A DNA stretch of 64,000 nt, from the NCBI GenBank assembly GCA_041662125.1, contig JBAZTA010000002.1:204154-268153 (forward strand). The letters are read 5' to 3'. This DNA comes from Candidatus Omnitrophota bacterium. GTDB lineage: Bacteria > Omnitrophota > Gorgyraeia > Gygaellales > Profunditerraquicolaceae. The notes below the pieces were generated by a model. The model was not told the DNA's origin, ran no database searches, and saw only the letters and a program-made list of their open reading frames with translations. This document shows, one piece after another, positions 18,568 through 23,087 of this stretch; the first letter of the stretch is position 1, and every line of letters begins with the position of its first letter. The translations under genes were made by a program, and so were the position numbers.

Positions 18568-18685
18568 AAGACCCGGTCTTGACTTGTGGTTTTTAATTAT
18601 TGATAAGACCGGGTCTTAAAGTGGAACTAACTAAAAAGACCGGGTCTTGGATTTGAATCTTAGGTTATAGAAAAGACCCGGTCTT
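18568..18685. repeat. four copies of palindrome AAGACC(S)GGTCTT
   Basis: Copies at 18568-18580, 18605-18617, 18636-18648, 18673-18685 between convergent gene and tRNA-Leu. Confidence 0.8.
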
Positions 18686-18764: not shown

Positions 18765-18851
18765 CTGGTGCCGGGAGAGGGAGTTGAACCCACACGAGGT
18801 TGCCCTCAACAGCTTTTGAGGCTGCCGCGTCTGCCATTTCGCCATCCCGGC
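18765..18851 (-). tRNA. tRNA-Leu (anticodon CAA)
   Basis: Reverse complement gives GCCGGGA acceptor stem, anticodon loop CUCAAAA, long variable arm, ...CCCGGCACCA 3' end with encoded CCA. Confidence 0.8.
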
Positions 18852-19026
18852 GCAACCAAAAACAAAATTTTTTTAAGTTGACGCCATCTATTTTATATTC
18901 TAAAATAGGAAAGGTCAACTAATATAATATCTCATCATAATTTCTTTCCAATTCTCTGCGGTATATATAAGTATCCCTGGCGGGAAGTGACGGCGGGGTG
19001 CTTCGATAGTATTTTAAAGTTCAAAT

Positions 19027-19066
19027 GGGGCTGTAGCTCAGCTGGGAGAGCACTTGCATGGCATGC
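19027..19066 (+). other. 5' 40-nt fragment of tRNA-Ala (direct repeat of 22144-22183); putative att remnant
   Basis: Identical 40 nt GGGGCTGTAGCTCAGCTGGGAGAGCACTTGCATGGCATGC, then diverges into AT-rich DNA. Confidence 0.7.
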
Positions 19067-19186: not shown

Positions 19187-19741
19187 ATGGATAAGAATCC
19201 TTTTAGTACTATTCTTGGAGCTTCTGTTAATGTTTATAAGGAAGAGTTTGGGGAAGAAGCTTACCTGGAAGGGCTTGCCAATAAATTTGTGCAAAAAGAT
19301 CCCAAGAACTTTTCTTCAGTCCGCAGTATAGTTTTAGATGTTCACTTTCGGTTAGAAACCATTCTAAATATTATCCTAAAATGGTATCTCTGTTTTTATA
19401 ATAAAAAAAAGATATTTTTTTCAAAGGAAGACTACTATAAACTTGGTGATGTTGTTAGTAATATTGATTACGCTAAAAAATTAGCGATTGTTGAGCTGTT
19501 AAAAATTTTTAATAAGCAAACAGTTAAAATATTCTGGAAAACTAATGACTTGCGCGTCGCCTTTTCCCATAATTATAAAAAAGATAGCCCTAAGTATCTA
19601 TTCTATGGAGAATCTATTTTTAAACGTAAATCGGTTGACAAGTTAATAGACGGCTTAGAATTAGTGAGAGAGGAATTTCTTAGTTTTATTGTAAGTGAAG
19701 ATGATGCTTCTCCAGAAGTGAATCCCGAATTCCCGGTCTAA
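19187..19741 (+). CDS. hypothetical protein, possible HEPN/Abi-like (Rx4H motif)
   Basis: AT-rich ORF in islet; LRVAFSHN contains Rx4H, the HEPN/Abi_2-type motif; otherwise unrecognised. Confidence 0.4.
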   Translation: MDKNPFSTILGASVNVYKEEFGEEAYLEGLANKFVQKDPKNFSSVRSIVLDVHFRLETILNIILKWYLCFYNKKKIFFSKEDYYKLGDVVSNIDYAKKLAIVELLKIFNKQTVKIFWKTNDLRVAFSHNYKKDSPKYLFYGESIFKRKSVDKLIDGLELVREEFLSFIVSEDDASPEVNPEFPV

Positions 19742-19800
19742 AATCATTCCTCTGGACAGCAAGATCTTTAGGGTGGAATATAATTCAAGGAGTGATACTT

Positions 19801-19953
19801 ATGGATACTAAATGGATAATAGGATTAGTAGTGGTGGTAATTTGTGCTTTTATACCTGTAATATTCAAGAAGAAATCTAAGCAAAGCCAGTCCCAAGAGC
19901 AAAAAGTTAAGGGCGAAGGTTATCAGAAGCAATCTCAAAAGCAGGGAGAGTGA
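19801..19953 (+). CDS. small single-TM protein (50 aa)
   Basis: aggagtga SD then ATG; MDTKWIIGLVVVVICAFIPVIF TM helix then K/Q/E-rich tail; below the ORF-track length cutoff. Confidence 0.3.
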   Translation: MDTKWIIGLVVVVICAFIPVIFKKKSKQSQSQEQKVKGEGYQKQSQKQGE

Positions 19954-19954
19954 T

Positions 19955-20263
19955 ATGTTAAATGATAAGCAGGGACAGAATCAGCAGCAAAATGTAGCTA
20001 TTGGTTTTGAAAAGCATGGAGTAGTGACTGAAGTCCATTGCCCGTTTTATACCGATGAACGCACAACGTATTTAAAAGATCGCCGAGATTATGGCAGTGG
20101 GCAAGAAGGGCTTCTGAATAAAAAATTATATTTCGATTCTCAATTAGTTAGAGTTATTGTTTATGAAGGGAAAGCAAGACCTATTTGCCATCTCTTTGAT
20201 AGTGCTTCGAGAAAGTGTCTGAAGAAAAAAGAAGAAAATACGCAGTGCCACATAGTAATGTAG
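19955..20263 (+). CDS. hypothetical Cys/His-containing small protein
   Basis: HCPFY ... CHLFD ... RKCLKK ... QCH possible metal-binding residues; start overlaps previous stop (ATGA-type coupling). Confidence 0.4.
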   Translation: MLNDKQGQNQQQNVAIGFEKHGVVTEVHCPFYTDERTTYLKDRRDYGSGQEGLLNKKLYFDSQLVRVIVYEGKARPICHLFDSASRKCLKKKEENTQCHIVM

Positions 20264-20281
20264 CCAAAAGCGTTTATCACT

Positions 20282-20995
20282 ATGGAATTACTTAACCCAA
20301 AAAAATCCCCTGAACAAAATTTATCTGATTACATCAAATTCTTCAAAAAACACCCTGCCATTTCTATAGTTGTTATCGTAGTAATATTGGCTTTGTCGGG
20401 ATGGAATATTTATTTGCAATATACTGGTAAGAGAATTAATGAATGTGAACAGACAATCAGCGCATTAAACAGAGAACTTGAAGCTAAGAGGGCAGAAATT
20501 CAGCGGCTCGAAACTCAATTGGTGCCGTTTAGAACTTTTGCATTGGAACATTATCCAGGGTCAGAAGCTGAGGCTTTGGCTAAGCTTGCTCAAAAAATCA
20601 CAGATATGGAGTTAACAATTGTCGCGTTGCGTGATTATGGTGATATCGCTAAGCTTGGTCCTATGGGAAGCGCAATAGTTGGCGGCAGAGGTATTAAATT
20701 TTCAACTCCACTTTCTCGAATGATGGAAGGAACTTGTGAAATAACCGGTGATCAAGCTGTCTTTATTCTCACCCCTGAAGCAGAAACTAAGAGTATGGCA
20801 GTTATAGAAAAGTTTCCTAATTTTCCATTCGCTTATTATCATGTTGCGCTCTGTTTTAGAGCGCGTAATGATAATAAATGGAGAACCTACGCTCAAAAGG
20901 CGAAAGAGATTTTTGAAATAACTACAACTATAGGTGGGCATGTCAAAAGTCATGATGAAGCTTTAGAAAATATTTTAATTTTCTTAAGACAATGA
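20282..20995 (+). CDS. hypothetical membrane protein (N-terminal TM, coiled coil)
   Basis: TM helix ISIVVIVVILALSGW then heptad-like region ALNRELEAKRAEIQRLETQL. Confidence 0.5.
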   Translation: MELLNPKKSPEQNLSDYIKFFKKHPAISIVVIVVILALSGWNIYLQYTGKRINECEQTISALNRELEAKRAEIQRLETQLVPFRTFALEHYPGSEAEALAKLAQKITDMELTIVALRDYGDIAKLGPMGSAIVGGRGIKFSTPLSRMMEGTCEITGDQAVFILTPEAETKSMAVIEKFPNFPFAYYHVALCFRARNDNKWRTYAQKAKEIFEITTTIGGHVKSHDEALENILIFLRQ

Positions 20996-21696
20996 ACGAT
21001 CTCATCTTGAAGTTTATAACTGAAATTCCTATTGATTATTCTTGGTTTTTTAGCACGCTGGCGCAGTCTTTAGCTGCTTTGATTAGCATCGGTGGTGTGT
21101 TTATCATCTATAGATTGCAGCTTTTAGAGAATGAGAATAAAGAAACAGTGCAGAATCTGCAAAGATATTTGTACCCATCTCAGCCAGAAAAACTTTTTTA
21201 TCTAACTAAAAGAGAAACTTTAACACGCGCTGATTATGAATGGAAAAGTTGTGAATCTCAAATAAAAGAACAGACGTTAGTAATTAAAGACATAGATCAA
21301 AGAATTAAAAATGAAAAGGAAGAAACTAAAGTACTTGAGAGCCGTAAGTCAGATTGTACTAACATTATAGGGTGGAATAAAGAAAGAATCTCTGGTTTTG
21401 ATGAAAGAGTATCAAAGCTTGTTGGGGGAGAAAAGTATAAAAACACTATTCAATGGGCTGCTTTTATTACATTTTTGTTTATGATGATCGTTTTCGTTTT
21501 AAGTTTGTTAGGTTTGATTTTTAGTAAATATCTTGAGAATAATATAGGGGTTGGAAATGAAGCTGTGCTTAACATATTTATTCTTTTGCTTGGGGCTTTA
21601 ACACAATTAACGTTGTGCTGCATGGCAGGACTTAATATTGGTAGGCCCGCTCTAAAAGCAATTTCTGAAAATACTGCTAAAAACAAAGCACTGTAG
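20992..21696 (+). CDS. hypothetical membrane protein (1 N-terminal + 2 C-terminal TM, coiled coil)
   Basis: Overlaps previous gene by 4 nt; TM segments at N- and C-termini. Confidence 0.5.
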   Translation: MNDLILKFITEIPIDYSWFFSTLAQSLAALISIGGVFIIYRLQLLENENKETVQNLQRYLYPSQPEKLFYLTKRETLTRADYEWKSCESQIKEQTLVIKDIDQRIKNEKEETKVLESRKSDCTNIIGWNKERISGFDERVSKLVGGEKYKNTIQWAAFITFLFMMIVFVLSLLGLIFSKYLENNIGVGNEAVLNIFILLLGALTQLTLCCMAGLNIGRPALKAISENTAKNKAL

Positions 21697-21787: not shown

Positions 21788-22018
21788 TTGAGCGCTTACG
21801 TGTTCCCGGAAAAGGAGGGCTCAAGAACAACAACCAATAGGAAAATTTTCTCGACAGTAGTAAGAAAAGCAGGTATAATTAACTTCAGTTTTAGATATCA
21901 CGATTTGAAGCATACTTACGTAAGTCAGCTTATCGTTTTCGGCGTAGACATAATTTTAAATACATATGCGCATAGTAGCGAAGCTCGAAAGCAGAAGGCT
22001 GTTAAACGATCTATATGA
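21788..22018 (+). pseudogene. tyrosine recombinase/integrase C-terminal fragment
   Basis: HDLKHTYVSQLIVFGVDIILNTYAHSS matches catalytic R-H-x-x-R...H...Y region pattern (HDLRHTxAS...G.D...LGHSS); only 76 aa, no N-terminal domains. Confidence 0.6.
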
Positions 22019-22143: not shown

Positions 22144-22219
22144 GTAATAATTTGGGGCTGTAGCTCAGCTGGGAGAGCACTTGCATGGCATGCAAGGGGT
22201 CAGGAGTTCGATCCTCCTC
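22144..22219 (+). tRNA. tRNA-Ala (anticodon GGC)
   Basis: GGGGCUGUAGCUCAGCUGGGAGAGCACUUGCAUGGCAUGCAAG... G3:U70 Ala identity element, TΨC GGTTCGATCC-like arm, encoded CCA. Confidence 0.9.
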
Positions 22220-22499
22220 AGCTCCACCAACTTTTCCCGACAAGGGAAAAGTTGGTGGACGTCGCAATGAGCGTTGCGAGGCGACAAGCCGAGCAGCGAA
22301 TGCGACGCCACCACCTAAATACATTCCGACAAAGGAAAATTAAAGCAAGTAACTATAGGGGACGTTTCAACGTCCCCTATTTCATTGTAGTAGCATTCAA
22401 AAAACCGCTGAATATACTATAAAAGTGATATAATAATAAAATCGTTAAGTAATGTATCTTTGGGATTATTCAATTAGTGATAAGATTTCAAGACCGGGT

Positions 22500-22592
22500 C
22501 TTATCAATAATAAAGTACGACCGTTCAAGACCCGGTCTTGTTACAGGGCACTACCTGTCAAGACCCGGTCTTATGAATCATGTTTACCCCGA
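22500..22592. repeat. three copies of palindrome AAGACC(S)GGTCTT (composite unit)
   Basis: 22500-22512, 22547-22559, 22580-22592. Confidence 0.8.
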
Positions 22593-22646: not shown

Positions 22647-23087
22647 ATGAGAAATGTAATTGTATTCATGCTATGTCTATTTTTTATTTCGATGGTTAAA
22701 GTTGGCCTAACCGAAGAGCCGCGGAGCGTTAAGCCAATTGATGAATCCAAAGCTTTAGGCCCGCTTGGGAAGAGTTTTTATAATGAAATAGCTAAATTAG
22801 ATAAAACGGAACAAAAAATTATTTATTCTGCTTATATTTCAGGTTTTTTAGATGGTGTAATATCTCAAAAAGCACAGGAAATTAATGCAAAAGAATTAAG
22901 TTTTGTTAATAATTTTCTTGAGATTTGTAAGGGGATGACAGAAGAACAGCTCGCCGATATGATGTTAGAATATTATGAAAAAAATCCTGGTGATAGAGAT
23001 CAAATGCCTATGCTTGTTCTAACCGTAGTAATTCCTAGATTAAAAAAAGGATTATCTCCTTATGGGCCACAAGAATTGAGGAATTAA
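22647..23087 (+). CDS. hypothetical secreted protein (AT-rich)
   Basis: Signal peptide; flanked on both sides by palindrome clusters; SD ggaggtaaga. Confidence 0.5.
   Translation: MRNVIVFMLCLFFISMVKVGLTEEPRSVKPIDESKALGPLGKSFYNEIAKLDKTEQKIIYSAYISGFLDGVISQKAQEINAKELSFVNNFLEICKGMTEEQLADMMLEYYEKNPGDRDQMPMLVLTVVIPRLKKGLSPYGPQELRN

What the first reader, a model, noticed from the sequence alone, without database searches (positions are those of the whole stretch)
19187..21696. Cargo operon of five uncharacterised proteins - candidate abortive-infection/defence module
The five genes are tightly coupled (overlapping or abutting start/stop). They encode (i) a 184-aa protein whose only recognisable feature is an Rx4H motif (LRVAFSHN) of the kind that defines HEPN/Abi_2 RNase domains, (ii) a 50-aa single-TM peptide, (iii) a 102-aa Cys/His protein, and (iv, v) two membrane proteins with coiled-coil segments. 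A nuclease-like sensor/effector plus membrane-disrupting partners inside a tRNA-associated islet is the typical architecture of anti-phage systems. None of the five matches a family I can name.
Basis: inference. Interest (0 to 1): 0.7.

Follow-up and report, generated by a model that had tools for sequence, protein, structure and literature searches.

The report
Solo HEPN nuclease gene in tRNA islet
A 3.1-kb decayed mobile islet next to a tRNA gene in an uncultured Omnitrophota bacterium carries a stand-alone HEPN-type (RNA-cutting toxin-like) gene from a small unnamed family that sits in defence and toxin islands elsewhere, but the five neighbouring genes are not a conserved five-part system.

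Summary
The five co-oriented ORFs are at the stated coordinates. They lie in a low-GC, 3.1-kb islet bounded by an exact 41-nt repeat of the 5' half of tRNA-Ala(GGC), which ends in a decayed integrase fragment.

The HEPN guess for protein 1 holds:
- A profile search finds 73 relatives, 68 of which I aligned. R123 is kept in 68/68 and H128 in 67/68, with consensus NxxRNAFAH.
- No Pfam, NCBIfam, PADLOC or PHROG model reaches threshold, so this is an unmodelled HEPN family.

Family members sit singly beside integrases, a serine recombinase, a retron RT-protease, BrnT/A and MNT-HEPN pairs and tRNA genes, with no constant partner.

The "five-gene system" reading does not hold:
- Homologues of proteins 1, 4 and 5 each occur elsewhere without the others.
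- Proteins 2 and 3 matched nothing in the searches I could run.
- Protein 4 is a membrane-anchored coiled-coil protein with a small TPR head. Its family also lies in defence islands, independently of protein 1.

Verdict: a new member of a known kind, namely a solo HEPN toxin or abortive-infection candidate like HepS, plus unrelated orphan cargo. No function was tested. Interest is modest.

The parts
19026..19066 (+). Left boundary repeat (attL-like): a displaced copy of the 5' half (positions 1-40) of tRNA-Ala(GGC)
   Evidence: Exact 41-nt direct repeat with 22153-22193 (family D3; alignment). ARAGORN finds no complete tRNA here.
19187..19741 (+). p1, 184 aa: stand-alone HEPN-domain protein with Rx4H at R123-H128. 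Predicted RNase toxin or abortive-infection effector.
19801..19953 (+). p2, 50 aa: single-TM peptide with a Lys/Gln-rich tail; no relatives found
   Evidence: ORF; TM segment at 7-25 of the 53-aa GTG-start form. Annotated WDL87_03435 and alone in its 90% cluster. Only weak, composition-type family hits.
19955..20263 (+). p3, 102 aa: soluble Cys/His-containing protein; no relatives found
   Evidence: ORF, with 4 Cys and 4 His. No significant hit in Pfam, NCBIfam, PHROG or PADLOC, PDB sequences or phage genomes. Alone in its 90% cluster.
20282..20995 (+). p4, 237 aa: bitopic membrane protein with an N-terminal TM, a long coiled-coil helix and a small C-terminal TPR-like domain
20992..21696 (+). 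p5, 234 aa: three-TM membrane protein with a long helical middle region between TM1 and TM2
   Evidence: TM scan. One distant homologue, P0006 at 30% identity, on a contig with different neighbours. No family, PDB or phage hit.
21788..22018 (+). Decayed C-terminal fragment of a tyrosine integrase (pseudogene)
   Evidence: Pfam Phage_integrase E 0.0015 and PHROG integrase phrog_1 E 2.3e-5. 40% identical to the integrase fragment at the end of related locus L006. Only about 76 codons remain, and reading the sequence shows the usual LGH stretch between HDLKHT and the catalytic Y is missing.
22154..22229 (+). Intact tRNA-Ala(GGC); its first 40 nt form the right boundary repeat (22153-22193)
   Evidence: ARAGORN; repeat D3; alignment.

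Best explanation
The region is the cargo of a roughly 3.1-kb degenerate integrative islet that entered tRNA-Ala(GGC) in an Omnitrophota genome and has since lost a working integrase.

Its one interpretable gene, p1, encodes a stand-alone HEPN-domain protein. It belongs to a small, previously unmodelled HEPN family of about 70 clusters at 50% identity.

By analogy with characterised HEPN proteins (inference, not shown), p1 would dimerise or oligomerise so that two R-x4-H motifs form a metal-independent endoribonuclease site. It would be held inactive until a trigger such as a phage protein or stress releases it. It would then cut tRNA, rRNA or mRNA and stop growth, as an abortive-infection or toxin function. 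This is the way solo HEPN proteins such as HepS work.

p2-p5 are lineage-restricted orphan cargo genes, three of them encoding membrane proteins. They are probably co-transcribed with p1, but they are not obligate partners: the p1, p4 and p5 families each occur elsewhere on their own. p4 is a membrane-anchored coiled-coil and TPR protein, and its family is independently a resident of defence islands.

Shown: the gene anatomy, islet boundaries, HEPN fold, motif conservation, lack of conserved partners, and the defence, toxin-antitoxin and mobile neighbourhoods.
Inferred: RNase activity, toxicity, defence role, trigger and co-transcription.
For: Islet:
- A 41-nt exact tRNA-half repeat, low GC and an integrase remnant.

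HEPN fold and motif:
- The family consensus is NxxRNAFAH, with R in 68/68, H in 67/68 and N120 in 65/68.
- Sub-threshold Pfam hits from family members fall on HEPN_Apea (12 members), HepT-like (7), RiboL-PSP-HEPN (7), Cthe2314 (7), DUF4145 (5), Swt1 (2), Abi_2 (2) and pEK499_p136 (1).
- The profile aligns the family motif onto the HepS stretch NNIRNKYAH, whose R-x4-H matches the R100-H105 active site named in PMC13043305; the E-value of 0.38 is weak.

Context of p1 relatives:
- Tyrosine integrase plus retron type XI RT-protease, PADLOC E 4e-183 (L020).
- Serine recombinase plus BrnT/BrnA plus an AbiEii-like nucleotidyltransferase (L018).
- MNT-HEPN pair and a BrnT/A-like pair (assigned by reading the ORFs) (L012).
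- HTH_17 plus a Ymh HEPN gene.
- A GajB-like UvrD-PDDEXK protein, E 8e-94 (L022).
- tRNA genes directly adjacent in L001, L009 and L010.

Solo precedent: HepS is a single HEPN protein that both senses phage and cleaves tRNA anticodon loops (PMC13043305).

No conserved partner.
Against: - No biochemical or phenotypic data exist for any family member.
- The residue after the catalytic Arg is Val in the window protein and its closest relatives. HEPN RNases usually have a polar N, D or H there (PMC3710099), and 40 of 68 family members have N. The window subclade could therefore be attenuated or altered in specificity.
- The islet is decayed, so the cargo may no longer be expressed. No convincing promoter or Shine-Dalgarno sequence precedes p1.
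- PADLOC and PHROG give no significant match to any of the five proteins.
- Neighbourhood evidence comes from about a dozen loci, not from a statistical enrichment test.
- The AF2 model rests on only four sequences.
Confidence: 0.6

Rival explanations
1. One reading: the five genes form one integrated anti-phage system, with p1 as the HEPN sensor or nuclease and p2, p4 and p5 as membrane effectors.
For: - All five are on the same strand. Three of the four junctions are very tight, including the p4/p5 ATGA overlap.
- The closest p1 loci show a loosely similar make-up. A small TM peptide follows the p1 homologue in L001, and a coiled-coil protein and a Cys-rich protein follow it in L006.
Against: - The downstream genes in other p1 loci are not homologous to p2-p5.
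- p4 homologues in L013-L016 and the p5 homologue in L007 lack the other components.
- p4 looks like a TPR scaffold, not a pore-former.
- No PADLOC system matches.
Confidence: 0.12
2. p1 is the toxin of a two-gene toxin-antitoxin module. Its antitoxin would be the small adjacent gene p2, or an unannotated RNA or peptide. The module would stabilise the islet and would not act in phage defence.
For: - HEPN proteins are classic toxins of MNT-HEPN modules (PMC3710099).
- In the two closest loci a peptide of about 50 aa follows the p1 homologue.
- An HTH gene lies upstream in two other contexts.
- Toxin-antitoxin pairs flank family members.
Against: - No MNT nucleotidyltransferase is adjacent in the window.
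- The two downstream peptides are unrelated and are membrane peptides, which is unlike known HEPN antitoxins.
- Most family loci lack any constant small neighbour.
- No tandem repeats or structured RNA occur in the islet leader.
Confidence: 0.15
3. p1 is a non-catalytic HEPN-fold regulator or RNA-binding protein, like MtlR, and not a nuclease.
For: - Val replaces the usual polar residue after the catalytic Arg in the window subclade.
Against: - R and H are essentially invariant across 68 divergent relatives, as is the conserved N three residues upstream. A large fraction of the MtlR family has lost the motif (PMC3710099).
- No metabolic operon context occurs in any locus. The neighbours are integrases, toxin-antitoxin pairs and defence genes.
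Confidence: 0.08
4. p2-p5 are the remnant of a phage lysis or superinfection-exclusion cassette (holin- or spanin-like membrane proteins) from a decayed prophage or satellite.
For: - Weak PHROG hits: p4 to Rz-like spanin phrog_214 at E 7e-4, and p2 to holin and spanin families at E 0.05-0.1.
- p4 has the type II TM plus coiled-coil topology of i-spanins.
- The islet carries an integrase remnant.
Against: - The hits are sub-significant and cover only the TM and coiled-coil regions.
- There is no endolysin and no other phage gene.
- No relatives turned up in 50,697 phage genomes or in IMG/VR.
- p4's conserved part is the TPR head, which spanins lack.
Confidence: 0.05

Closest known systems
HepS ('HEPN Solo' abortive-infection protein of Salmonella prophage Gifsy-1; PDB 9oik/9oij; PMC13043305)
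   Different: - Sequence similarity is not significant (E 0.38).
- p1 has Val, not Asn, after the catalytic Arg.
- The host phylum, trigger, oligomeric state and RNA target of p1 are all unknown.
- p1 sits in a tRNA islet, not in a lambdoid prophage accessory slot.
HepT/MNT-HEPN toxin-antitoxin toxins (e.g. SO_3166, PDB 5yep; 7ae2; DUF86/HepT-like PF01934)
   Different: - No MNT/MntA nucleotidyltransferase antitoxin gene lies next to p1.
- The Pfam HepT-like model does not reach threshold for p1, and only 7 of 68 relatives give sub-threshold hits.
- p1 has an extra N-terminal segment of about 45 residues and an insertion between the motif and the last helix.
Abi-type solo HEPN families (Abi_2/AbiD/AbiF, AbiJ, AbiU2, AbiV, Ymh; Anantharaman et al. 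2013, PMC3710099)
   Same: They share the HEPN fold and single-gene organisation, and they reside in restriction-modification and defence islands. One p1 relative lies directly beside a Ymh (PF09509) gene.
   Different: None of these Pfam models detects p1. Abi_2 is hit by only 2 of 68 relatives, below threshold. p1 belongs to a separate family that none of the four libraries searched models.
tRNA-targeting integrative genomic islets
   Same: It shows a direct repeat of part of a tRNA gene at both ends, an integrase gene next to the tRNA, deviant GC content and accessory cargo.
   Different: The duplicated segment is the 5' half of the tRNA, whereas from my own knowledge, not tested here, it is usually the 3' part. 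The integrase is reduced to about 76 codons.

Membership tests
HEPN superfamily | Four-helix up-and-down bundle (HEPN fold) | tested here: met
HEPN superfamily | Conserved Rx4-6H motif | tested here: met
   R123-VAFS-H128 in p1. R is kept in 68/68 and H in 67/68 aligned relatives.
HEPN superfamily | Polar residue (N, D or H) immediately after the conserved Arg | tested here: not met
   The window protein has Val124. Across the family the position is N in 40, V in 14, K in 6, I in 4, R in 3 and D in 1 of 68. The criterion comes from PMC3710099, which calls it typical, not obligatory.
HEPN superfamily | Metal-independent endoribonuclease activity from a dimeric composite site | not testable with these tools
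   Needs biochemistry. No multimer prediction was available.
MNT-HEPN (HepT/MntA) toxin-antitoxin module | Adjacent minimal nucleotidyltransferase antitoxin gene | tested here: not met
   No nucleotidyltransferase ORF or Pfam hit lies among the flanking genes in the window. MNT-HEPN pairs near relatives (L010, L012) are separate complete pairs.
MNT-HEPN (HepT/MntA) toxin-antitoxin module | Match to the HepT-like (PF01934) or HEPN (PF05168) model at gathering score | tested here: not met
   p1 has no Pfam hit up to E = 1. 7 of 68 relatives hit HepT-like below the cut-off.
   p1 has no hit. 2 of 68 relatives hit it at a best E of 0.01, below threshold.
HepS family | Significant sequence similarity to HepS | tested here: not met
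Any catalogued defence system (PADLOC-DB v2) | Significant match of the component proteins to system models | tested here: not met
   The best hits are p3 to PD-Lambda-5_A at E 0.0017 over 22 residues and p4 to KwaA at E 0.002 over the TM and coiled coil. p1, p2 and p5 have none.
tRNA-integrated genomic islet | Direct repeats derived from the target tRNA gene at both ends | tested here: met
   41-nt exact repeat at 19026-19066 and 22153-22193.
tRNA-integrated genomic islet | Functional integrase | tested here: not met
   Only a 76-codon C-terminal remnant with an internal gap is left.
Conserved multi-gene operon or system | Co-occurrence of the component families in other genomes | tested here: not met
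   tblastn of p1-p5 against the loci fetched by then (L001-L016). p1, p4 and p5 homologues never share a locus. p2 and p3 have no homologues in those loci.

The most novel reading that the evidence does not exclude
The p1 family is a new single-protein abortive-infection nuclease lineage, mostly from uncultured bacteria such as Omnitrophota. It would be wired to fast-evolving, non-homologous membrane partners: small TM peptides, coiled-coil membrane proteins and Cys-rich proteins that follow it in the window, L001 and L006. These partners would act as interchangeable envelope sensors or effectors, making a modular 'HEPN plus variable membrane module' defence architecture not yet described.
Probability: 0.1. 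Interest if true: 0.6.

Novelty: new member of a known kind. Interest (0 to 1): 0.3.

Why it matters
It adds a small HEPN family that none of the four libraries searched (Pfam, NCBIfam, PADLOC, PHROGs) models: 73 relatives at E <= 1e-3 among 1.84 billion representative proteins. Its members behave like solo toxin or abortive-infection genes on mobile islets in poorly studied phyla.

If the family is confirmed as an RNase, it would give a second lineage, alongside HepS, in which to study how a single HEPN protein both senses and executes. It would also supply a new model for defence-system annotation tools.

It also shows that a tightly packed 'operon' in an islet need not be one system. The find is not conceptually new, and nothing here makes a long-standing question newly testable.

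Tried and rejected
- Family libraries for all five proteins and the integrase fragment (Pfam, PADLOC, NCBIfam, PHROGs) gave only sub-threshold, TM or coiled-coil driven hits. I rejected these as compositional: FtsL, spanin, holin, KwaA, TPR_21, and tetherin in PDB.
- PDB sequence searches for p1 with a 4-sequence and a 68-sequence profile, and for p3, p4 and p5, gave nothing significant.
- Phage and plasmid genome tblastn for p1, p3, p4 and p5 found no match.
- IMG/VR scans for p1, p4 and p5 found no relatives.
- BFVD viral structure search for p1 gave nothing at E <= 0.001. The afdb50 library was unavailable.
- The search for related loci rejected alignments A2 and A3 as too diverse. The narrower A4 found only 3 genome loci and 2 metagenome loci.
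- I tested whether genes downstream of p1 homologues are hidden homologues of p2-p5, by BLASTP, tblastn and hhalign. They are not.
- I looked for att-like repeats around p1 homologues in L001, L006, L009 and L010. Only a weak 17/20 match flanks the L001 module, so that is not conclusive.
- I looked for an RNA antitoxin or structured leader in the islet. There are no tandem repeats, the leader folds with z = -1.55, and Rfam finds only the tRNAs.
- The AAGACCSGGTCTT palindromes flanking the region looked at first like terminal inverted repeats of a larger element. They occur in 15 copies in intergenic regions across the window, so they are a genome-wide repeat.
Full report
**1. The observation**

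The window comes from a 543-kb contig of a Candidatus Omnitrophota MAG, and the five proteins carry locus tags WDL87_03430 to 03450. All five + strand ORFs are present:

| Protein | Coordinates | Length |
|---|---|---|
| p1 | 19187-19741 | 184 aa |
| p2 | 19801-19953 | 50 aa from the annotated ATG (alternative GTG at 19792) |
| p3 | 19955-20263 | 102 aa |
| p4 | 20282-20995 | 237 aa |
| p5 | 20992-21696 | 234 aa |

- Three junctions are tight: a 1-nt gap, an 18-nt gap and a 4-nt overlap. The p1/p2 junction has a gap of 50-59 nt.
- The motif LRVAFSHN lies at p1 residues 122-129.
- p2 has one predicted TM segment, p4 one and p5 three. p1 and p3 are soluble, and p3 has 4 Cys and 4 His.

**2. The islet**

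- ARAGORN finds tRNA-Leu(CAA) at 18766-18851 on the minus strand and tRNA-Ala(GGC) at 22154-22229 on the plus strand.
- The first 40 nt of tRNA-Ala, plus one upstream base, are repeated exactly at 19026-19066. The similarity stops abruptly after the 41st base.
- Between the repeats GC falls to 0.34-0.37, against about 0.44 in the flanks.
- Just upstream of the intact tRNA lies a 76-codon ORF (21788-22018). It matches only the C-terminal catalytic region of tyrosine integrases (Pfam E 0.0015; PHROG integrase E 2.3e-5) and lacks part of that region.
- The five genes are therefore the cargo of a roughly 3.1-kb integrative islet that can no longer move on its own.
- The 13-nt palindromes AAGACCSGGTCTT on both sides are not part of the islet. 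They occur 15 times in intergenic DNA across the window.

**3. Protein 1 is a HEPN protein from an unmodelled family**

- No Pfam, NCBIfam or PADLOC model hits p1 up to E = 1, and the best PHROG hit is an unannotated family at E 6e-4.
- A word-indexed search of 5.8 billion proteins finds only three relatives, at 57-68% identity.
- An exhaustive profile search of 1.84 billion representatives finds 73 at E <= 1e-3 and 37 at E <= 1e-10.
- An AlphaFold2 model built on the four closest sequences is all-helical, with mean pLDDT 78.6 and pTM 0.77.
- In a 68-sequence alignment with 19% mean column identity, R123 is invariant and H128 is kept in 67/68. N120 is kept in 65, F126 in 63 and H53 in 62.
- The family consensus is NxxRNAFAH, which is the canonical HEPN RNxxxH motif.
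- Individual members give only sub-threshold Pfam hits, but these fall on eight HEPN families, over the motif-bearing half of the protein.
- A profile search of PDB sequences aligns the family motif onto the HepS stretch NNIRNKYAH, whose R-x4-H matches the R100-H105 active site named in the HepS paper, although only at E 0.38.
- One caveat: the window protein and its closest relatives have Val or Ile after the Arg. HEPN RNases usually have N, D or H there (PMC3710099), and 40 of 68 family members have N.

**4. The five genes are not a conserved unit**

p1-family loci have varied neighbours:

| Locus | Neighbours of the p1 homologue |
|---|---|
| L001 | An unrelated 52-aa membrane peptide, then tRNA-Met and tRNA-Val and housekeeping genes |
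| L006 | A 180-aa coiled-coil protein, a 139-aa Cys-rich protein and an integrase C-terminal fragment 40% identical to the window's |
| P0004 contigs | An HTH_17 gene upstream and a Ymh-family HEPN gene downstream |
| L009 | tRNA-Thr and tRNA-Tyr upstream |
| L010 | A truncated copy just before tRNA-Ala(CGC), beside an MNT-HEPN pair |
| L011 | A Fic/RhuM-like gene and an XRE HTH gene (assigned by reading the ORFs) |
| L012 | An MNT-HEPN pair and a BrnT/A-like pair |
| L018 | A 643-aa serine recombinase, BrnT/BrnA and an AbiEii-like nucleotidyltransferase |
| L020 | A tyrosine integrase and a retron type XI RT-protease (PADLOC E 4e-183) |
| L022 | An island between rpmB and rpsO, next to a GajB-like UvrD-PDDEXK protein |

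- None of these loci encodes a relative of p2, p3, p4 or p5.
- p4 has four homologues outside this MAG, at 80-35% identity. In L013 and L014 they lie among a BsaWI-type restriction-modification system, an LmuB/AbiLi-like ATPase and a PDC-M68A-like HNH-ATPase. In L015 they lie after an AAA_15 plus DUF4276 pair and before a PDC-S15 FRG protein. p1, p3 and p5 relatives are again absent.
- p5 has a single 30%-identical homologue, with a different neighbour.
- p2 and p3 are each alone in their 90%-identity cluster.
- The only hint of a conserved pair is a gene abutting the 3' end of the 80%-identical p4 homologue on a 1-kb contig whose DNA could not be read.

**5. What p4 looks like**

- The model (pLDDT 79.3 for the best of five, but 55-73 for the others) has a continuous helix from residue 25 to 90, covering the TM and a coiled coil. 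A short beta element follows, then helical hairpins at 165-236.
- The conserved sequence signature of the family (FPxFPFAYY...C..R...W..YA.KA..I...TT...H...HD) lies in this head.
- This is a membrane-anchored binding or scaffold architecture. Nothing supports 'membrane disruption'.

**6. Most likely mechanism**

- Shown: a decayed tRNA islet; a solo HEPN gene with an intact, family-wide catalytic dyad; mobile, toxin-antitoxin and defence neighbourhoods; no fixed partner.
- Inferred from established HEPN biology (PMC3710099; HepS paper PMC13043305): p1 oligomerises so that two Rx4H motifs form an endoRNase site. It is kept inactive until triggered, and then cleaves cellular RNA to arrest growth. 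This would serve abortive infection or act as an addiction toxin.
- HepS shows that one HEPN protein can be both sensor and effector.
- p2-p5 are best read as independent, rapidly evolving cargo, probably co-transcribed with p1.
- I put about 0.9 on 'p1 is a HEPN-superfamily protein', about 0.55-0.6 on 'it acts as a conflict-system RNase toxin on its own', and about 0.12 on 'the five genes form one system'.

**7. Rivals**

The rivals are a p1/p2 toxin-antitoxin pair, a non-catalytic MtlR-like regulator and a lysis-cassette remnant. Each is weighed in the rival section, and each has weaker support than the solo-HEPN reading.

**8. Novelty and score**

- Solo HEPN toxins and Abi proteins in mobile islands are a well-known kind, for example AbiD/F, AbiJ, AbiU2, Ymh and HepS. 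What is new here is a separate small family absent from the four libraries searched, and a p4 family with a TPR head that also tracks defence islands.
- I rate it 'new member of a known kind', with interest about 0.3.
- The main open points are biochemical activity, the role of the Val after the catalytic Arg, and whether any of p2-p5 interacts with p1.

Noticed in passing
window 19026-19066 and 22153-22193: The islet duplicates the 5' half of tRNA-Ala (positions 1-40, through the anticodon loop), and the integrase remnant lies upstream of the intact tRNA. The element must therefore have supplied a replacement 5' half and a promoter. From my own knowledge, not tested here, tRNA-targeting elements normally duplicate the 3' part.
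   Followed up: partly
window 12952, 13060, 18568-18685 (4 copies), 22490-22572 (3 copies), 23097, 23134, 23794, 23831, 42289, 42365: The 13-nt palindrome AAGACCSGGTCTT occurs 15 times where 0 are expected by chance. Every copy is intergenic, usually in pairs 31-37 nt apart. It looks like a REP-like repeat or a binding or terminator element of this genome.
   Followed up: partly
window 22223-22259: A perfect 16-nt inverted repeat (TCCACCAACTTTTCCC / GGGAAAAGTTGGTGGA) starts inside the 3' acceptor end of tRNA-Ala. The tRNA 3' end could therefore pair with the downstream sequence in the primary transcript (pair I10).
   Followed up: no
window 22647-23087; L009 3707-4063: A 146-aa signal-peptide protein just outside the islet gives a weak, sub-threshold match to Rap1a, a type VI secretion immunity family (E 1.3e-3). 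It is distantly related (E 4e-4) to a 118-aa protein lying three genes after the p1 homologue in L009.
   Followed up: partly
window 21788-22018; L006 1638-1943: Both the window islet and the related locus L006 end with only the C-terminal roughly 70-80 codons of a tyrosine integrase, and the two fragments are 40% identical. This suggests a shared ancestral element or a recurrent truncation point.
   Followed up: partly
L020 724-4746: An Omnitrophota locus carries a tyrosine integrase, then a retron type XI RT-protease (PADLOC E 4e-183), then a p1-family HEPN gene. This is a compact defence islet and a retron in a poorly studied phylum.
   Followed up: no
L006 1255-1674: The 139-aa Cys-rich protein downstream of the p1 homologue contains an internal 67-nt direct repeat at 70% identity, which corresponds to a duplicated CxxC-rich module.
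   Followed up: no
L001 355-374 and 1470-1489: A 20-nt direct repeat with 17 of 20 bases matching brackets the two-gene module (p1 homologue plus 52-aa membrane peptide) beside tRNA-Met. It could be an att remnant or a chance match.
   Followed up: no
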